Below are positions 18,702 through 24,749 of a stretch of 64,000 nucleotides of DNA, piece by piece; positions within the stretch are counted from its first letter, which is position 1, and each line of letters opens with the position of its first letter. The translations under genes and the position numbers were made by a program. This DNA comes from an uncultured Methanolobus sp. GTDB taxonomy: Archaea; Halobacteriota; Methanosarcinia; Methanosarcinales; Methanosarcinaceae. Under the pieces are notes generated by a model that was not told where the DNA came from, did no database searches, and was given only the letters and a program-made list of their open reading frames with translations. The stretch lies in contig OY776215.1 in the NCBI GenBank assembly GCA_963675495.1, positions 2,656,001-2,720,000 on the forward strand. Direction: 5' to 3'.

Positions 18702-19370
18702 ATGAGACTGGATGCATACCTTGTGGAAATGGGTTATTTTAAGTCAAGAGCCAGGGCAAAAACCGCCATACTCAATGGAAATGTCAAGGTAGATCGCACT
18801 ATTGTAAAAAAACCTTCCAGGGATATCAATACAAATGTTGAGGTTGATGTAGAGGAAGGGCTTGATATGCCCCGGGGTTATTTCAAGCTCAAAAATATAC
18901 AGGATGCAACAGGTCTGATCTCAGAAGGTGACAGGGTACTTGACCTTGGTTCAAGTGCCGGGGGCTTCCTGATGCTTGCATCTGAGATTGCATCTTCTGT
19001 CAAAGGTGTGGAATTCAGCAGGGATTTTAGCACGGAACTCGAAAAAGTAGCGGATGAGAAAGAAAATGTTTCCTTTATATTCGGGGATGTATTCAATATC
19101 CCTTTGCAAGAGATGTCTCGTGATAAGGTTGATGTGATACTCAGCGATATGACACTTGAACCTCTGGATTCTCTGGCAGCTCTTGAGAGGGTGTTGCCAC
19201 TGTTGAGGCATGAAGGCAAACTGCTTCAGGTGATCAAGATGGGAAAGCAGAAGAACAGCAAACCAGTTCTTGCAAAAGCAGAATCAATGGGGCTGAAAAT
19301 TATCGAGGTTCGGGAATCTGAAAAGCAGGAGATATATATAATTGCACAAAAAATGATGCAGTTAGAGTAA
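18702..19370 (+). CDS. TlyA/FtsJ-like RNA methyltransferase with S4 domain
   Basis: MRLDAYLV...SRARAK (S4); VLDLGSSAGGF; DVILSDM. Confidence 0.85.
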   Translation: MRLDAYLVEMGYFKSRARAKTAILNGNVKVDRTIVKKPSRDINTNVEVDVEEGLDMPRGYFKLKNIQDATGLISEGDRVLDLGSSAGGFLMLASEIASSVKGVEFSRDFSTELEKVADEKENVSFIFGDVFNIPLQEMSRDKVDVILSDMTLEPLDSLAALERVLPLLRHEGKLLQVIKMGKQKNSKPVLAKAESMGLKIIEVRESEKQEIYIIAQKMMQLE

Positions 19371-19413
19371 GAATTATGGATGAATTTAAGTTTAAAACAA
19401 AGATTAAATCGAG

Positions 19414-20016
19414 ATGAACATGTCGTACCGTATACTTGGAGAGGGGAAGCCTGTCAGGTTGTTTGTGGCAGGTCTGCACGGCAAAGAATGGATGGATACT
19501 TCAGATATCCTTGAGAACATAGCAGCTCCAAAGAAGGGGACTCTGGCAGTTATTCCCCTTGTGAATAAAGGCAACTATGTCTCTACACTGGATGATAGCT
19601 ATTTTACTGAAATTGGGAGGCCTATAATAGAGGCGGTTGAAGAGCTCAAACCTGAAGTTTATATTGAAATTCACTCTTACTCTGCGCAAAACCTTGGAAA
19701 ACTCACAGGTGCTGAAAGGTTGGAACAGGTAGGAGTACCGGCATTCAGCAGGCTTGATCATGATGTGCTTCTGGGTTCTGTTGCACCATACATCCGCAGA
19801 GAGTACTTTCCTCAGGATGCGCTATGCCTGACTTTTGAGATACAGAAAGGAAATGCCCTTTCAAAACAGTACGCAACAAGTCTTATAAACAGGATGAAGG
19901 AATTCACATCCAGAGATGAGTTCCTAAGCTGTATGCTTGAACGATATCCAAAACAGGCAAGGAAAGCCATTGAGGACTATAAGAACTTCTATGGCTTATC
20001 AGATGATGAAATTTAA
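19414..20016 (+). CDS. Conserved methanogen protein, DUF2119-like (Zn-exopeptidase fold)
   Basis: GLHGKEW, YVSTLD, YIEIHSY motifs. Confidence 0.75.
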   Translation: MNMSYRILGEGKPVRLFVAGLHGKEWMDTSDILENIAAPKKGTLAVIPLVNKGNYVSTLDDSYFTEIGRPIIEAVEELKPEVYIEIHSYSAQNLGKLTGAERLEQVGVPAFSRLDHDVLLGSVAPYIRREYFPQDALCLTFEIQKGNALSKQYATSLINRMKEFTSRDEFLSCMLERYPKQARKAIEDYKNFYGLSDDEI

Positions 20017-20099
20017 TCCTATAGATATTTTGAATTATAAATATAAAAGCATGATTAGAAGAAAAAATTGTATTCTAATAACAAGGGAAATAAAAACTT

Positions 20100-20130
20100 C
20101 TCATGGCATATACTCCGATCATGCCATGAG
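20100..20130 (-). terminator. Hairpin overlapping the 3' end of small peptide gene 1, followed by a U-rich tract
   Basis: CTCATGGCAT/ATGCCATGAG 10-bp inverted repeat; minus-strand RNA continues AAGUUUUUAUUU. Confidence 0.6.
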
Positions 20131-20223
20131 GGTATAGTATGCCATCATTGTAGCAGCAAGTCCGGTCAGGATCGTAGCAAACTTCGTAAGATCTATGTTG
20201 TTGTTGTAGTATTGTTCTGTCAT
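20119..20223 (-). CDS. Small hydrophobic peptide, 34 aa (copy 1): MTEQYYNNNIDLTKFATILTGLAATMMAYYTLMA
   Basis: Not in the ORF track; paralog at 22774-22893 differs mostly at synonymous third positions; TATA box about 30 bp upstream. Confidence 0.8.
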   Translation of the reverse strand: MTEQYYNNNIDLTKFATILTGLAATMMAYYTLMA

Positions 20224-20291
20224 GATTTATCATGATATACAAGTGCATTACTCTATATATAGCTATGGGTCATCTATCATGATTAATCATG
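20221..20291. promoter_or_regulatory. Dyad-symmetric operator-TATA-operator element (copy 1)
   Basis: CATGATTTATCATGATA (20221-37) and TATCATGATTAATCATG (20275-91) are 16/17 inverted repeats around palindromic CTATATATAG (20253-62). Confidence 0.7.
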
Positions 20292-20349
20292 TGTGAACTG
20301 TAAAAGAATGTATATGAATAAGTATGAAGTGACTGTTAACTTTCTGATT

Positions 20350-22590
20350 TTATTTCTGTTTTCTGCCCCAAAGGGCTGTAATACATACGATGGTAATCCC
20401 TGCAATAAATGTAAATCCTGGGGTAGTACGAACTTCCATAACCTCTGTTTCTGGTTCAGGCTCTTGAGTATATTGAGACATTGATAGCCTTGTTTCTTCG
20501 TCTAATGGCATTTCGCCTGATTTGAAGCCTACAATACTAAAAAATGAAAAACCAAGTGTTTGTGTGGTGAAGTATATTGATTCATCATCTTCATCTACAT
20601 GTATAGTTGGCAGGTCATTCCATTGATCATCATGGTATCTTGTCATGCGTATTGTGGATGTATCTATTTTATTCGCAGCTGCCCATTCCTTACTGACCCT
20701 GAAATGAATGTTAATATTGTCAGCATTGTCTGTTGATATTGTACCTTCATTCCCTACATCTATGCGCATGAGATTATAAGAAGTGCCTGAGGGGGATGAT
20801 ATTTCGTCAGGTACCTCTTTGAGGACCTCTACTCTGGCCATAACAAGGCCTTTGTTGTTCTTTGAATCAAAGGTTATTCCTGTAATTGGTGTACTACTCT
20901 CTGAGAAGTCAAATTCAACTTCAGCACCGTTATTAACTCTTATAATTGATGAGACCGTGGTTTCCATGACCTTTTCTTTTTGATCTGGGATAGTTTGTTC
21001 AGAGCTTTCTGAGTTACTGTTCGCCGGAATTGGTGAGAAAGGCGCATTTACTGTAATTGTTGTCGATGTGCTGTTAGATAAGCCCCTTGCACTAACAGTA
21101 AGTGTTGCAATATATATTCCAGAATCAGTGTATTCATGTGTGGTGTTAACTGCTGATTTATCTGTTGTATTATACCATTGTCCATCACCAAATGACAGGT
21201 TCCACATAGTTGGGCCATCTGTGGATATATCTGTGAATGCAACATTTAGCGGCGCAGTTCCAGATGCTGTATTTATTGTGTAATCAGCTTCTGGTGAGAT
21301 TGGTACCATTGAAAATTCTATTGCAGGATTTGATTCGTTAATAGTGACCATCTGATGTGTAGGTGTTTCATAGAAATCCTTTACCACAGTTATGTTGTAT
21401 GTTCCGACTTCAAGCACCAGGGTTGTGTTGGTCTGAATAGCCTGTTTAGTTTCATCTACATATATTATAGCATCTGGTGTGGAAGAATTGACTGGAAGAA
21501 AACCTGGCTTCAAAATAGTGGCATATTTGAGTGTCATCTCAGTACTGTCGTAATAACTAATAGACACTTCATCTGAAGAATTAAAAGCAAGGGATGTGTA
21601 TCGTCCAACATCTCCAATGCTGTCAATTGTTTCAGTCTTCCATCTGTTGCCATTGTAATAGGTATACTTAAGGTCTCTGTTAGTAACATCGTAGTAGCTT
21701 ATTGCTGGTTTATCTTGCAAATCAAATGCAAGGGATGTGTATTGTCCAACGTATGCGCTGTTGTCTATTGTTTCCACATTCCATGTGTTGTTGTCGTAAT
21801 AAGCAAATTTGAGATGGTTGTGAACACCAGCATCCAGATAGCTTATTGCTGGTTTATTTTCTGAATCAAATCCAAGGGATGAGTATTGGCCAACGTAACC
21901 ATTGCTGTCAATTGTTTGCACATTCCATGCGTTGTTGTCATAATAAGCATATTTGAGGCTATAGTTCGTGTTGTCTGCATAACTTATTGCTGGTTTATTT
22001 ATCAAGTCAAATGCAAGTGAAGTATATAGTCCAACATCACCACCATTGTCTACTATATCTATCTGCCATCCATTACCATCGTAATGGGCATATTTGAGAG
22101 TCCCGTTTGTGTCATCATGATAGCTTATTGCTGGATTATTTGAGAAGTCAAATGCAAGAGATGTGTACCTTCCGACATTGTCTATGCTATCAACAATCTG
22201 CACTTTCCATTGGCTGTCATCGTAATAAGCATATTTGAGGTCTCCATTATTGTTATCGTAATAGCTTATTGCTGGTTTATCTGCCAGGTCAAATGCAAGG
22301 GAAGTGTAGTATCCAACAGATTCATTGTTATCAATTGTTTCAATGATCCATTGGTTACTGTCATAACAAGAATATTTAAGATTTCCATTTGTGCTATCGT
22401 AATAACTTATTGCTGGTCTGTCGGCTGAATCAAATGCAAGGGATGTATAGTATCCAACAATGCTATTGTTGTCAACTGTTTCCACATGCCAGGATGATGC
22501 AGTGGCAGATGTTGATAGCAAAATTAATGATAAGAATATGATGGTTGGAAACTGATATTTTTCCAACAAGATACATTTTAAGGATGGCAT
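20350..22590 (-). CDS. Cell-surface protein: 7-repeat beta-propeller, PEGA-like, PKD, PGF-pre-PGF, PGF-CTERM
   Basis: Seven repeats of W..ET.D...VG.YTSLAFD...PAISY.D; C-terminal TPGF, TM helix, RKQK. Confidence 0.9.
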   Translation of the reverse strand: MPSLKCILLEKYQFPTIIFLSLILLSTSATASSWHVETVDNNSIVGYYTSLAFDSADRPAISYYDSTNGNLKYSCYDSNQWIIETIDNNESVGYYTSLAFDLADKPAISYYDNNNGDLKYAYYDDSQWKVQIVDSIDNVGRYTSLAFDFSNNPAISYHDDTNGTLKYAHYDGNGWQIDIVDNGGDVGLYTSLAFDLINKPAISYADNTNYSLKYAYYDNNAWNVQTIDSNGYVGQYSSLGFDSENKPAISYLDAGVHNHLKFAYYDNNTWNVETIDNSAYVGQYTSLAFDLQDKPAISYYDVTNRDLKYTYYNGNRWKTETIDSIGDVGRYTSLAFNSSDEVSISYYDSTEMTLKYATILKPGFLPVNSSTPDAIIYVDETKQAIQTNTTLVLEVGTYNITVVKDFYETPTHQMVTINESNPAIEFSMVPISPEADYTINTASGTAPLNVAFTDISTDGPTMWNLSFGDGQWYNTTDKSAVNTTHEYTDSGIYIATLTVSARGLSNSTSTTITVNAPFSPIPANSNSESSEQTIPDQKEKVMETTVSSIIRVNNGAEVEFDFSESSTPITGITFDSKNNKGLVMARVEVLKEVPDEISSPSGTSYNLMRIDVGNEGTISTDNADNINIHFRVSKEWAAANKIDTSTIRMTRYHDDQWNDLPTIHVDEDDESIYFTTQTLGFSFFSIVGFKSGEMPLDEETRLSMSQYTQEPEPETEVMEVRTTPGFTFIAGITIVCITALWGRKQK

Positions 22591-22758
22591 TCAAGTTGTA
22601 TATTATGTCTACATATATAAATAATGTTTTCATTATTTATTTAAAAGAATCATAGGATCAATTTTTCCTTAATCTTGCACATTTAAACAGCAAGGTAGTT
22701 TTATTTCAAATAGGCAATAAATATTAAAAACAGAAAAGTACTGAGGAAAGATACTAAT

Positions 22759-22791
22759 TATCATGGCAGAATTTTAGATTACACCATGATA
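22759..22791 (-). terminator. Hairpin overlapping the 3' end of small peptide gene 2
   Basis: TATCATGG/CCATGATA 8-bp inverted repeat. Confidence 0.5.
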
Positions 22792-22893
22792 GCTGAAGAG
22801 TGAATAATATGCGATCATTGCTGCTGCAAGTGAGGTCAGTATCGTTGCAAACTTCGTGAGGTCTATGTTGTTGTTATAGTATTGTTCTGTCAT
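22774..22893 (-). CDS. Small hydrophobic peptide, 39 aa (copy 2): MTEQYYNNNIDLTKFATILTSLAAAMIAYYSLFSYHGVI
   Basis: Not in the ORF track; first 20 aa identical to copy 1 despite 5 synonymous changes. Confidence 0.8.
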   Translation of the reverse strand: MTEQYYNNNIDLTKFATILTSLAAAMIAYYSLFSYHGVI

Positions 22894-22961
22894 GATTTAT
22901 CATGATATACAACATGCACTTTATATATAATGTTTTTGGTTAACTATCATGATTAATCATA
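22891..22961. promoter_or_regulatory. Dyad-symmetric operator-TATA-operator element (copy 2)
   Basis: CATGATTTATCATGATA and TATCATGATTAATCAT with the same spacing as copy 1, around palindromic TTATATATAA (22921-30). Confidence 0.7.
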
Positions 22962-23120
22962 ACATTACATGTGATCTCTAATTGCAGATTATTTCGGAAC
23001 ACTAAACGTGAAAATAAATTGGAAATAAAAACCTGCAAGGTGATAGTTTATCAACTGCTAAAAAAGTCTAATCAAATAAATTTGATAAGAAAAAAGAATG
23101 AAAAGAGGTTTCAATCCTCT

Positions 23121-24749
23121 TTACATCATTCCGCCCATGTCATAATTATGGATGTTATGCTCTGGAGCTACATCCATCATGGCCTGTTCTCTTGCACGGA
23201 GCATGTCATCAACACGCAGAACCAATACTGCTGATTCTGATGCTGATTTGATGGCCTGGGTCTTAACTCTCAGTGGGTCTACGATGCCTCTTTCAAGCAT
23301 ATCTACAACATCACCAGTGTCAACGTCAAGACCTGCATTCTTAATAGTTCCGTGTTTTGCACGCAGGTTTATAAGTGTGTCAATAACATCAAAGCCACAG
23401 TTTTCTGCAATAGTTCTCGGGAGTTCTTCAATAGCCTCTGCAAATGCTACTATTGCAAGCTGTTCACGGCCTTCAACAGACGCTGCATACGTTCTTAATG
23501 CCTGTGCAACCTCTATCTCGGATGCGCCGCCACCAGGTACTATCTTTCCATCCTCATACACAGTTTTTACTACATGCAATGCATCATCAAAAACACGTTC
23601 AATGTTGTCGGTGACATGTTCTGAACCACCCTTTATGAGAATGGTCATGGTTCTTGCCTCTTTGAATCCCTTTATGTAGGTCTTCTCTTCATGCTCATCT
23701 TCCTGCTCGATAAGTTCAGCATATCCAAGGTCATCAGCTGTCATCTCACTGACATTTCTTACAAGAGCTGCACCGGTTGAATGGGATAGAACGGACATAT
23801 CCTCATCTCTTACACGCCTTGTAGCATACATGTTTGCTTCTTTGAAGAAATGAAGTGCATAGTCATCAATTTTCTTAGAACAGAATACTGCATTTGCTCC
23901 AGTGTCAATTATTTTCTGAATTTGCTTCCTGAAGTTTGCTTTTTCCTGCTCCTTGAAATCAGCTAACTGTTCAGCGCTATCAACTTGGAGCTTGGATTTT
24001 GTAGTCGTCTGGGCAAACGTGAGTTCAGTATCAATAAGGATTATCTTCGCATTTTCTATGCGGCGTGGCATTTCGTTATGGAGTGCCTCTTTTCTTATTG
24101 CTATGCCGTTAATGAGTTCAGTATCGTGGATAATGCCACCTACTTCCTTTGCCATTACAATGTCCTCATCAACATTGACCTTACCCTCGTATTCAATGGC
24201 ATAGATCGCATCCACACAGATCTTAGCAAGTTGTTCCCCTGCCATCTCTGATGCCTTTCCTGTGATGGAGGTGGTTGCTATCTTCTCAAGCATTTCGCTG
24301 TCTGTCTTATCTACGGTGATGGCGTAATCATCGAGAACACTTAGAGCCTTCTCGGTTGCCATTGTATAACCTTTTATGAGGACTGTTGGGTGAACACCTG
24401 TTTCAATGAGTTTCTGTGCTTTATCAAGAAGAGCACCTGCCATTACCACTGCGCTGGTTGTTCCGTCACCAGCCATCTTTTCCTGGGTTTTGGCGATCTC
24501 CACGATCATCTTTGCAGTAGGATGTTCGATATCCATTTCATCAAGGATGGTTGCGCCATCGTTTGTGAGGGTTATGTCACCCATAATGTTAACCATCATC
24601 TTGTCCATACCTTTAGGACCAAGGGTGGTTTTCACAATACTTGCAACTGCTTTTGCAGAAGCGATGTTCATTGACAATGCATCTTTTCCTGTAGTGCGCT
24701 GTTTACTTGGATCAACAATGATTATAGGCTGATTACCATATCCTGCCAT
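23121..24749 (-). CDS. ths: Thermosome subunit (group II chaperonin)
   Basis: TTLGPKGMDKM, TNDGATIL, GDGTTS, PGGGASE; GGMM tail. Confidence 0.97.
   Translation of the reverse strand: MAGYGNQPIIIVDPSKQRTTGKDALSMNIASAKAVASIVKTTLGPKGMDKMMVNIMGDITLTNDGATILDEMDIEHPTAKMIVEIAKTQEKMAGDGTTSAVVMAGALLDKAQKLIETGVHPTVLIKGYTMATEKALSVLDDYAITVDKTDSEMLEKIATTSITGKASEMAGEQLAKICVDAIYAIEYEGKVNVDEDIVMAKEVGGIIHDTELINGIAIRKEALHNEMPRRIENAKIILIDTELTFAQTTTKSKLQVDSAEQLADFKEQEKANFRKQIQKIIDTGANAVFCSKKIDDYALHFFKEANMYATRRVRDEDMSVLSHSTGAALVRNVSEMTADDLGYAELIEQEDEHEEKTYIKGFKEARTMTILIKGGSEHVTDNIERVFDDALHVVKTVYEDGKIVPGGGASEIEVAQALRTYAASVEGREQLAIVAFAEAIEELPRTIAENCGFDVIDTLINLRAKHGTIKNAGLDVDTGDVVDMLERGIVDPLRVKTQAIKSASESAVLVLRVDDMLRAREQAMMDVAPEHNIHNYDMGGMM

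What the first reader, a model, noticed from the sequence alone, without database searches (positions are those of the whole stretch)
20119..22893. Two unannotated paralogous micro-peptide genes (34 and 39 aa) showing a purifying-selection pattern
Seen: minus-strand ORFs 20119-20223 (MTEQYYNNNIDLTKFATILTGLAATMMAYYTLMA) and 22774-22893 (MTEQYYNNNIDLTKFATILTSLAAAMIAYYSLFSYHGVI). Over the first 32 codons I count 8 synonymous differences and 4 conservative replacements (G/S, T/A, M/I, T/S), with no indels. The first 20 residues are identical despite 5 third-position changes. Each has a polar N-terminus and one hydrophobic helix, its own TATA box and a 3' hairpin. I do not recognise the family. Inference: a real single-pass microprotein family, such as a membrane-complex modulator, a signal-peptide precursor or a type I toxin-like peptide. 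This is the best candidate for an undescribed system in the window.
Basis: partly seen in the sequence, partly recalled or inferred. Interest (0 to 1): 0.85.

Follow-up and report, generated by a model that had tools for sequence, protein, structure and literature searches.

The report
Conserved methanogen membrane microprotein gene family
The two tiny genes are real and belong to a conserved family of 33-53-residue, probably membrane-embedded proteins found only in two related methane-producing genera, each gene with its own tightly conserved control sequences; their function is still unknown.

Summary
Both minus-strand ORFs exist, and I count the same 8 synonymous and 4 replacement codon differences over 32 codons.

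They are real genes, not chance ORFs:
- A third paralogue lies elsewhere in this genome.
- Open-frame homologues occur in 23 of 34 other Methanolobus genomes and 11 of 11 Methanomethylovorans genomes. None was found in 105 genomes of 14 other genera of the family.
- All 45 evaluable copies are intact.
- Third codon positions vary most, and median dN/dS is about 0.2.

Each gene is its own transcription unit:
- one 7-2-7 palindrome upstream of the BRE/TATA;
- a second copy of the palindrome over the predicted transcription start and the ATG, so the mRNA is near-leaderless;
- a 3' hairpin spanning the stop codon.

Weaker versions of the upstream element are conserved in front of the cdhA and UPF0058 genes across the genus. 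That points to a genus-wide transcription factor.

The product is predicted to be one helix with a hydrophobic C-terminal half. There is no Pfam, NCBIfam, PADLOC or Rfam match. Some homologues are deposited only as 'hypothetical protein'.

Best reading: a tightly regulated single-pass membrane microprotein that modulates a larger membrane protein. I found no expression data, partner or inducing condition. It is a new family of a known kind.

The parts
20119..20223 (-). Copy A coding sequence, 34 aa (short 'S' form ending ..TLMA), stop codon included
   Evidence: The S form arose from the long form by a 10-nt deletion and frameshift. 25 distinct S-form copies in relatives have median dN/dS 0.20.
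20220..20235 (-). Copy A element 2: the 7-2-7 near-palindrome TCATGAT-AA-ATCATGA, lying over the predicted transcription start and containing the ATG
   Evidence: Present in 44 of 45 distinct copies.
20254..20261 (-). Copy A TATA box (TATATATA, -38..-31), preceded by an A-rich BRE-like stretch
20277..20290 (-). Copy A element 1: the palindrome ATGATTAATCATGA at -67..-54, upstream of the BRE/TATA
   Evidence: Present in 45 of 45 distinct copies at -67..-65. The exact 14-mer occurs only 3 times in the 2.87-Mb genome, at the three paralogue promoters.
20100..20130 (-). Copy A 3' hairpin spanning the stop codon, followed by a U-tract (about 20087-20099)
   Evidence: -15.7 kcal/mol in a 59-nt window; no shuffle control was run
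22774..22893 (-). Copy B coding sequence, 39 aa (long form ending ..YHGVI), stop codon included
   Evidence: The orthologue in the nearest relative G001 is 87% identical.
22890..22905 (-). Copy B element 2 (TCATGATAAATCATGA), over the predicted transcription start and the ATG
22921..22930 (-). Copy B TATA box (TTATATATAA, -37..-28)
22947..22960 (-). Copy B element 1 (ATGATTAATCATGA)
22759..22791 (-). Copy B 3' hairpin. Its 5' arm is the Tyr-His-Gly codons and it spans the stop codon.
   Evidence: Methanomethylovorans copies keep the hairpin through a compensatory U-A to C-G change.
22726..22749 (-). Copy B 3' tail: a decayed TTTCCTCA version of the family's TTYCCTCC motif (22742-22749), then the U-tract CTTTTCTGTTTTT (22726-22738), the likely terminator
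   Evidence: conserved with G001 up to about +80 after the stop
23121..24749 (-). Context: thermosome subunit gene directly upstream on the same strand, with its own terminator-like hairpin before copy B
   Evidence: A thermosome gene is the upstream neighbour in 20 fetched family loci.
20350..22590 (-). Context: 746-aa surface-type protein (tandem repeats, PEGA, PKD, PGF-pre-PGF domain) lying between copies A and B
   Evidence: It lies between the copies only here and in G001. In 8 other genomes the tandem copies are 290-826 nt apart.
19414..20016 (+). Context: convergent DUF2119 gene downstream of copy A
   Evidence: It is the neighbour in 20 fetched loci.

Best explanation
Copies A and B are two of three paralogous genes for a family of 33-53-residue proteins confined, as far as searched, to Methanolobus and Methanomethylovorans.

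Product (shown and inferred). Each protein is predicted to be one helix: a short polar, acidic-to-neutral N-terminal part (Met-Thr/Ile-Glu, then Tyr/His/Asn-rich), followed by an 18-20-residue hydrophobic stretch rich in small residues, ending in Tyr-Tyr. The ancestral long form ends in a conserved Tyr-His-Gly-Val-Ile/Val/Phe tail. The 34-aa form lost that tail through a 10-nt deletion and was then kept and amplified in tandem. I infer that the protein inserts into the cytoplasmic membrane as a single-pass microprotein. I infer further that it acts by packing its small-residue face against a larger membrane protein, changing that partner's activity or stability. The tail-less short form may act as a variant of the long form.

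Transcription unit. Each gene is a separate unit. A BRE/TATA promoter is flanked by two copies of one 7-2-7 palindrome, one about 13-15 bp upstream of the BRE/TATA and one over the predicted start site and the ATG. The mRNA would therefore have a leader of only about 8-15 nt and no Shine-Dalgarno sequence. A hairpin spans the stop codon and a U-tract follows.

Regulation (inferred). The palindrome is most simply the binding site of one transcription factor present across the genus, because weaker versions sit at the same place in the cdhA (CODH/ACS) and UPF0058 promoters. With its two best sites at these promoters, the factor would hold the microprotein genes under tight on/off control.

Shown: gene reality, conservation, anatomy and distribution. 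Inferred: membrane insertion, a partner, the factor, and the sign of regulation.
For: Coding:
- 45 of 46 promoter-bearing sites are followed by an intact family ORF; the 46th is cut by the locus end.
- Variable columns by codon position are 15/12/27 of 32 and 17/14/28 of 34 for S forms.
- dN/dS is 0.11 for the window pair. The medians are 0.19 (328 pairs), 0.20 (288 of 300 S-form pairs) and 0.32 (77 of 78 pairs of 38-aa forms).

Distribution:
- 3 copies in this genome.
- 23 of 34 other Methanolobus and 11 of 11 Methanomethylovorans genomes; 0 of 105 genomes of 14 other genera.
- Only 6 hits, all 34-54 aa, among 1.84 billion representative proteins.

Fold:
- AlphaFold2 with 25 aligned sequences gives one helix, residues 2-36, mean pLDDT 82.6.
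- The best 17-residue hydropathy is 1.27-2.35.

Own transcription unit:
- Element 1 in 45 of 45 copies, element 2 in 44 of 45, and a TATA at -38..-36 in at least 34 of 45.
- The hairpin window folds at -10 kcal/mol or lower in 37 of 45 copies, and one base pair shows a compensatory change between genera.
- Conservation between orthologues stops about 105 nt before the ATG and about 80 nt after the stop.
- Li et al. 2015 (PMC5378194, passages seen) place the BRE/TATA about 19-22 nt from start sites in M. psychrophilus, and report 15.6-16% leaderless mRNAs.

Factor site:
- The exact 14-mer occurs 3 times in this genome, only at the paralogues.
- In 5 other Methanolobus genomes it occurs 0 times in the 2 that lack the family. 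In the 3 that have the family it occurs at family loci plus one extra site, which lies upstream of UPF0058.
- Related elements lie at -144..-161 of cdhA in 27 of 30 genomes. These include 3 of the 6 family-less genomes; 2 more have one at -264 and 1 has none.
- Related elements lie at -165..-180 of UPF0058 in 29 of 30 genomes with up to 4 mismatches in 16, and in 18 of 30 with up to 3.

Stable chromosomal genes:
- Synteny is fixed, either thermosome/DUF2119 or thioesterase/PaaK-like ligase neighbours.
- No match in plasmid or phage collections.
Against: - No transcript, ribosome or peptide evidence was available.
- Hydrophobicity of the short forms (1.27-1.82) is borderline for a stand-alone membrane helix.
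- There are no basic residues to fix topology apart from one Lys before the helix in the Methanolobus forms.
- No candidate partner is encoded next to the genes. The two loci have unrelated neighbours, unlike operon-encoded small subunits.
- 11 of 34 Methanolobus genomes lack the family, so it is dispensable.
- The transcription factor is not identified.
- The cdhA upstream region is conserved well beyond the element, so its conservation there is only moderate evidence for a shared site.
- The UPF0058 criterion (up to 4 mismatches in 16) is loose.
Confidence: 0.55

Rival explanations
1. Type I toxin-like or otherwise self-acting membrane peptide. The protein is kept off by the operator over its start site. 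When induced, it perturbs the membrane by itself (depolarisation, growth arrest or persistence), possibly countered by an antisense RNA.
For: It is a small, hydrophobic, single-helix product. It occurs in tandem multi-copy arrays of 2-3 genes in 8 genomes. It is a stand-alone gene in an intergenic region with an operator over the start. In many short-form copies the opposite strand downstream reads like a BRE/TATA (GGAGGAAA followed by an A/T-rich run) that could drive an antisense RNA.
Against: Net charge is -4 to +1, without the basic termini usual in such toxins (the norm is recalled). There is no match to any Pfam toxin family at E up to 1. The possible antisense TATA is missing in the long forms and in Methanomethylovorans. 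Synteny is stable over two genera and no plasmid or phage copies were found. The mRNA is near-leaderless rather than carrying the long structured leader usual in type I toxin mRNAs (recalled).
Confidence: 0.12
2. Dual-function RNA. Besides encoding the microprotein, the roughly 190-nt transcript acts as a riboregulator. Its 3' tail (hairpin, then a single-stranded TTYCCTCC anti-Shine-Dalgarno motif, then a U-tract) would pair with ribosome-binding sites of other mRNAs.
For: TTYCCTCC lies within 80 nt after the stop in 23 of 45 copies, against 2 of 1915 long ORFs of this genome. CCTCC lies at +28..+55 in 27 of 45 copies, against 3.6% of random 80-nt windows. The motif occurs in both genera. Its predicted unpaired probability is 0.73, against 0.53 transcript-wide. 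There is no conserved ORF on the opposite strand to explain it as a ribosome-binding site.
Against: None of the three copies in this genome has an intact CCTCC. Copy B has a one-base deletion relative to G001, and copy A and the third paralogue have none. The motif is therefore dispensable here. No target was sought. The coding signal shows that the protein itself is selected.
Confidence: 0.1
3. Exported peptide, such as a signal, a leaderless bacteriocin-like antagonist or a modulin-like surfactant, made from tandem paralogues.
For: The size, the tandem paralogues, the absence of a leader peptide, and the conserved aromatic/His C-terminal tail.
Against: The helix is uniformly hydrophobic rather than amphipathic, and the peptide is acidic to neutral. 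No exporter, immunity or modification gene is conserved next to either locus.
Confidence: 0.05
4. Non-coding element or chance ORFs. The conservation would reflect only DNA or RNA signals.
For: The control elements are more conserved than the protein. Codons 2-3 are almost invariant at the nucleotide level.
Against: There is a third-position excess, dN/dS is about 0.2, the frame is open in 45 of 45 copies, and synonymous changes occur inside the conserved Tyr-His-Gly-Val tail.
Confidence: 0.02

Closest known systems
MttS, the 49-aa small subunit of the MttP trimethylamine transporter of Methanosarcina mazei (bioRxiv 10.64898/2025.12.02.691841; abstract and passages seen)
   Same: A single-pass microprotein of a methylotrophic methanogen. 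It has Tyr/Trp-rich residues outside the helix and acts by binding a larger membrane protein.
   Different: MttS is encoded in the mtt operon directly after mttP and mttQ, and is conserved in Methanosarcina and other genera. The present family stands alone between unrelated genes and was not found in 105 genomes of 14 other genera. I had no MttS sequence, so I made no direct sequence comparison.
Bacterial small membrane-protein regulators such as AcrZ, MgtS, KdpF, CydX and MntS (recalled; no call)
   Same: Under 50 residues, one helix, act by binding transporters or respiratory complexes, and often sit under a specific stress regulator.
   Different: There is no sequence relation (0 Pfam families at E up to 1). 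Several of those are operon-encoded with their partner, whereas here no partner is adjacent. These genes are archaeal, with a near-leaderless mRNA.
Type I toxins such as TisB, Ibs, Ldr and Hok (recalled; no call)
   Same: Small hydrophobic peptides, sometimes in tandem copies, kept tightly off.
   Different: See the rival explanation: the charge, the lack of a conserved antisense gene, the stable synteny, and no family match.
Dual-function RNAs such as RNAIII/delta-haemolysin and SgrS/SgrT, and the anti-Shine-Dalgarno sRNA41 of M. mazei (recalled; no call)
   Same: A short ORF plus a C/U-rich motif in an unpaired tail, in 27 of 45 copies.
   Different: The motif has decayed in all three copies of this genome. 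No target is known.
[quoted passage not shown] 2015, PMC5378194; passages seen)
   Same: Small, highly conserved intergenic transcripts of the same genus, with a shared motif upstream of the promoter.
   Different: Their identity is given only in Supplementary Figure S7 and Table S6, which I could not read. The copy number (nine) exceeds the 1-4 family copies per genome seen here. Whether they overlap is untested.

Membership tests
Type I toxin peptides | Small (under 60 aa) hydrophobic single-helix peptide | tested here: met
   33-53 aa; one helix, residues 2-36, pLDDT 82.6; hydropathy 1.27-2.35
Type I toxin peptides | Conserved overlapping or adjacent antisense RNA antitoxin | tested here: inconclusive
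   An antisense BRE/TATA-like sequence occurs in many short-form copies but not in long forms or Methanomethylovorans. No strand-specific RNA data were available.
Type I toxin peptides | Sequence match to a described toxin family | tested here: not met
   0 Pfam families at E up to 1; 0 NCBIfam; 0 PADLOC
Type I toxin peptides | Toxicity on overexpression | not testable with these tools
   needs an experiment
MttS small transporter subunit | Encoded directly downstream of mttP and mttQ in the mtt operon | tested here: not met
   The neighbours are thermosome/DUF2119 or thioesterase/PaaK-like ligase/JAMM genes.
MttS small transporter subunit | Conserved across Methanosarcina and other methylotrophic genera | tested here: not met
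   A profile of 25 sequences found nothing in 105 genomes of 14 other genera of the family. Those genera are unnamed in the tool output.
Small membrane-protein modulators (functional class, not a homology family) | Single-pass microprotein under 50 aa | tested here: met
   The short forms are borderline in hydrophobicity.
Small membrane-protein modulators (functional class, not a homology family) | Physical binding to a larger membrane protein | not testable with these tools
   No candidate partner is adjacent; needs pull-down or cross-linking.
Dual-function sRNA | Translated short ORF | tested here: met
   By inference from the codon pattern and dN/dS; no ribosome data.
Dual-function sRNA | Conserved accessible base-pairing motif | tested here: not met
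   CCTCC is present in 27 of 45 copies but intact in 0 of the 3 copies of this genome.
Leaderless bacteriocins / modulin-like peptides | Cationic or amphipathic helix, with an adjacent exporter or immunity gene | tested here: not met
   Net charge -4..+1 and a uniformly hydrophobic helix; no such neighbours.
Rfam RNA families | Covariance-model match | tested here: not met
   0 matches at E up to 1 in window 19000-24000

The most novel reading that the evidence does not exclude
The loci are archaeal dual-function genes. A near-leaderless mRNA encodes a membrane microprotein. In most relatives its 3' tail (hairpin plus an unpaired TTYCCTCC anti-Shine-Dalgarno motif) would also silence ribosome-binding sites of other mRNAs. 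The genes would sit at the top of the regulon of a genus-wide transcription factor whose weaker sites stand before the CODH/ACS (cdhA), UPF0058 and perhaps ATP-synthase operons. That would link a microprotein and riboregulator switch to central carbon and energy metabolism of methylotrophic methanogens.
Probability: 0.1. Interest if true: 0.75.

Novelty: new member of a known kind. Interest (0 to 1): 0.5.

Why it matters
Very few archaeal microproteins have a known role, and almost all of those come from Methanosarcina mazei or Haloferax. This family comes with features that make it easy to attack experimentally:
- a clear coding signal;
- natural knock-outs, since 11 of 34 Methanolobus genomes lack it;
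- a natural truncation series, with long forms carrying the Tyr-His-Gly-Val tail, tail-less short forms, and 53-aa forms with a doubled N-terminal module;
- an unusually sharp cis-regulatory signature that can be used as bait to find its transcription factor.

If the palindrome is a factor site shared with cdhA and UPF0058, the family also gives a handle on transcriptional control in obligate methylotrophic methanogens, which is largely unknown.

Tried and rejected
Expression:
- The look-up of sequencing runs listed no RNA holder. It returned 4 runs of one study, kind unknown.
- Laying them showed three runs with long contigs that break at the repeated 36-nt promoter/5' coding sequence, which is the usual assembly behaviour at a repeat. 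The fourth run gave short, very deep contigs of unknown library type. None of this says anything about expression.

Binding:
- Complex prediction with four copies of the 39-aa protein gave 'no answer' (score 0.08, mark 0.42). It is not used as evidence either way.

Leads that gave nothing:
- ESM Atlas: best scores 0.85 or lower, below the tool's own level for a lead.
- PHROGs: one hit at E 0.11, ignored.
- Literature: searches for the two motifs and for two peptide fragments found one unrelated mouse paper. 'UPF0058' found 0 papers. 'Methanolobus' with 'small protein' gave 19 papers, none on this family judging from the 15 listed titles and abstracts. Nothing in print on this family was found.
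- The supplements of Li et al. 2015 (Tables S6, S10, Figure S7) may show transcription start sites or cold induction for these loci, but they were closed.

Rejected readings:
- A conserved antisense ORF behind the GGAGG on the opposite strand. The candidate starts and peptides differ from copy to copy.
- Distant homologues in two other families of the order (L028, L029; E about 0.001 in a small local search). They lack the palindromes and sit in a different conserved element. They were dropped from all counts, as were L030 and L031.
- A one-mismatch copy of element 1 beside a DtxR-like regulator and znuABC-like operon. It lies inside the regulator's coding sequence and is probably chance.
- An RNA stem between elements 1 and 2. 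There is no conservation upstream of element 1 that could provide a promoter for such a transcript.

Rows dropped before counts: copies with N or with incomplete flanks were left out, taking the set from 69 family ORFs to 45 distinct complete copies.

One correction: my note says '4 of 6 family-less genomes' for the cdhA element. The correct count is 3 of 6 at -144..-161.

Full report
**Observation**

An in-frame TAA lies just before each ATG, so the starts are not in doubt. Over 32 codons there are 8 synonymous and 4 replacement differences, and the first 20 residues are identical despite 5 third-position changes. Nei-Gojobori gives dN/dS 0.11 for the pair. After codon 32 a 10-nt indel shifts the frame. 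The DNA that the 39-aa copy reads as Tyr-His-Gly-Val-Ile-stop is read in the 34-aa copy as Leu-Met-Ala-stop. Both copies keep the hairpin formed by this stretch.

**Are they genes?**

The own genome (one 2.87-Mb contig) holds a third, more distant paralogue of 37 aa.

A search of 61 related genomes with the 39-aa protein found open frames of 33-39 aa in 25 of 35 genomes of the same genus. Elsewhere it found only weak chance-level matches. A profile of 25 sequences (alignment A2) found:
- the family in 23 of 34 other genomes of the genus;
- the family in 11 of 11 genomes of one further genus;
- nothing in 105 genomes of 14 other genera of the family.

Record titles and deposited names identify the two genera as Methanolobus and Methanomethylovorans. 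Among 1.84 billion representative proteins the profile found only six hits, all 34-54 aa and plainly the same family.

I collected 69 family ORFs from the fetched loci and reduced them to 45 distinct complete copies from 34 loci. Of 46 distinct sites carrying the start-region element, 45 are followed by an intact family ORF. The last is cut by the end of its stored locus. Third codon positions vary in 27 of 32 columns, against 15 and 12 for positions 1 and 2. Median pairwise dN/dS is 0.19 to 0.20 for the Methanolobus forms and 0.32 for the more divergent 38-aa forms. This is the signature of a translated gene under purifying selection. No transcript or peptide data could be obtained.

**The protein**

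Invariant residues are Met1 and Glu3. Thr2, Tyr6, Asn8 and Phe15 are nearly invariant. The N-terminal 12-15 residues are polar and differ between subfamilies: Tyr/Asn-rich in Methanolobus and His/Glu-rich in Methanomethylovorans. Two 53-aa Methanomethylovorans variants carry this module twice.

An 18-20-residue hydrophobic stretch rich in Ala, Thr, Gly and Met follows, then Tyr-Tyr. In the long forms a conserved Tyr-His-Gly-Val-Ile/Val/Phe end follows. AlphaFold2 with the alignment predicts a single helix, residues 2-36, with mean pLDDT 82.6.

Hydropathy is clearly membrane-like in the Methanomethylovorans forms (up to 2.35) and borderline in the short forms (1.27-1.82). Net charge is -4 to +1.

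There is no match in Pfam, NCBIfam or PADLOC. PHROGs gave nothing meaningful, and the ESM Atlas gave only sub-threshold leads. A few homologues are deposited as 'hypothetical protein'. Five of the 12 exact sequences I looked up are not in the protein collection at all, so gene calling for the family is patchy.

**The locus**

The most conserved parts are not in the protein:
- Element 1 is a palindrome of two 7-nt half-sites separated by 2 nt. It starts at -67 to -65 in 45 of 45 copies.
- A BRE-like A-rich stretch and a TATA box follow 13-15 nt later. The TATA lies at -38 to -36 in at least 34 of 45 copies by a strict pattern.
- Element 2 is a second copy of the same palindrome with one central change. 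It ends inside codon 2, so it contains the ATG. It is present in 44 of 45 copies.

Li et al. 2015 place the BRE/TATA about 19-22 nt from start sites in M. psychrophilus (passages seen). On that basis transcription should start about 8-15 nt before the ATG, within element 2. The leader has no Shine-Dalgarno sequence, so the mRNA is leaderless or nearly so. This is an inference.

At the 3' end a hairpin spans the stop codon. It folds at -10 kcal/mol or lower in 37 of 45 copies in 59-nt windows, though I ran no shuffle control. In Methanomethylovorans one base pair has changed on both sides, and the change on the coding side is a synonymous His codon change. Both the peptide tail and the RNA stem are therefore kept.

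Between the orthologues of this genome and its nearest relative, conservation runs from about -105 to about +80 after the stop. It ends after a U-tract. That outlines a transcript of roughly 190 nt.

**The palindrome**

The exact 14-mer of element 1 occurs three times in this genome, only at the three paralogues. I checked five other Methanolobus genomes:
- In the two that lack the family, it is absent.
- In the three that have the family, it occurs at family loci plus one extra site. That site lies upstream of a UPF0058 gene.

A weight matrix built from the 45 sites ranks the orthologous UPF0058 site fourth in this genome, after the three paralogues. A related sequence stands at -165 to -180 of UPF0058 in 29 of 30 Methanolobus genomes with up to 4 mismatches in 16, and in 18 of 30 with up to 3.

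Half-site-plus-BRE/TATA modules of the same geometry stand before cdhA, the first gene of the CODH/ACS operon. They lie at -144 to -161 in 27 of 30 genomes, including 3 of 6 family-less ones. That whole promoter region is conserved, however, so the element is not an isolated island of conservation. Similar sequences lie before a second cdhA paralogue and before the ATP-synthase operon of this genome. I did not check those in relatives.

The simplest reading is a transcription factor present across the genus. Its two best sites flank the microprotein promoters, one in the position typical of archaeal activators and one in the position typical of repressors (the position rule is recalled). The factor and the signal it senses are unknown.

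**History and context**

The locus next to a 4HBT thioesterase, a PaaK-like ligase and a JAMM-domain gene is shared by both genera, so it is probably the older one. In Methanolobus, further copies sit between the thermosome gene and a convergent DUF2119 gene, in 20 fetched loci. Eight genomes have 2-3 tandem copies there, 290-826 nt apart.

The short form dominates these arrays. In the genomes I examined it is accompanied by at least one long form somewhere in the genome.

In this genome and its nearest relative, a 746-aa surface-type protein gene has come to lie between the two copies. No copies were found on plasmids or phages.

**Mechanism**

I commit to a single-pass (or membrane-embedded) microprotein that works by helix packing against a larger membrane protein, expressed only under a specific condition set by the palindrome-binding factor. 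My confidence by step is:
- about 0.95 that these are translated genes;
- about 0.8 that the product is membrane-embedded;
- about 0.4-0.5 that it acts through a partner rather than by itself.

The toxin-like, dual-function-RNA and exported-peptide readings are set out as rivals. The 3' TTYCCTCC motif is real and unexplained. It occurs in 23 of 45 copies, against 2 of 1915 long ORFs of this genome. It has decayed in all three copies of this genome.

**Comparison and novelty**

The nearest functional analogue in a methanogen is MttS of M. mazei. It differs in operon context and in distribution. No sequence family, structure or paper found here describes this family.

It is a new family within a known kind of gene, with an unusually well-defined regulatory signature. 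It is a good experimental target rather than a surprise in kind.

Noticed in passing
Relatives: 28-55 nt after the stop codon of family copies (e.g. L004, L011, L024, L034); decayed at window 22742-22749: A TTYCCTCC (anti-Shine-Dalgarno-like) motif lies between the 3' hairpin and the terminal U-tract in 23 of 45 copies, against 2 of 1915 long ORFs of this genome. There is no conserved ORF on the opposite strand. Its function is unexplained.
   Followed up: partly
G000:C1:1812792-1812817 (outside the window; L059/L060): The fourth-best genomic match to element 1 lies upstream of the BRE/TATA of a UPF0058 gene (PF01893). Its closest solved relative is PDB 2gf4, of unknown function. A related sequence is kept at -165..-180 in 29 of 30 Methanolobus genomes, including family-less ones.
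   Followed up: partly
G000:C1:2730777-2730930 (outside the window; L090/L091) and G000:C1:417845: Two half-palindrome-plus-BRE/TATA modules stand before cdhA (CODH/ACS). The proximal one is kept at -144..-161 in 27 of 30 Methanolobus genomes. A similar sequence stands before a second cdhA paralogue.
   Followed up: partly
G000:C1:2387994-2388095 (outside the window): A palindrome of the same type (TAATGAT-AA-ATCATTA) lies upstream of the BRE/TATA of the ATP-synthase (ahaH/ahaI-like) operon, with a second weaker copy near the predicted start. Relatives were not checked.
   Followed up: no
window 20350-22590 (-): A 746-aa protein with about nine tandem 'YTSLAFD...PAISYYD' repeats, PEGA and PKD domains, a PGF-pre-PGF domain and a PGF-type C-terminal anchor lies between the two microprotein genes. 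This arrangement occurs only here and in the nearest relative (91.6% identity over residues 1-405).
   Followed up: partly
L037:2495-2656(-) and L038:2495-2656(-) (Methanomethylovorans): These are 53-aa family members in which the N-terminal His/Glu-rich module is duplicated in tandem. Their promoters also carry an extra palindrome-like copy further upstream.
   Followed up: no
L028:1429-1593(-) and L029:1378-1578(-) (two other families of the order): Two 54-66-aa ORFs share an 'NNID..KF...NYYT' pattern with the family. They lack its promoter elements and sit in a stretch that is highly similar between distant genomes, possibly a mobile element. I judged the similarity to be chance.
   Followed up: partly
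window 23095-23120 (-): A short G+C-rich hairpin followed by a T-run lies directly after the thermosome stop codon. This fits separate transcription of the thermosome gene and copy B.
   Followed up: no
Literature: PMC5378194: Li et al. [quoted passage not shown] Whether any of them is a member of this family could not be checked because the supplements are closed.
   Followed up: partly
G000:C1:2170859 (L058): A one-mismatch copy of element 1 lies inside the 3' end of a DtxR-family regulator gene that precedes a znuABC-like operon with a His/Glu-rich binding protein. It is probably a chance match caused by the coding sequence.
   Followed up: partly
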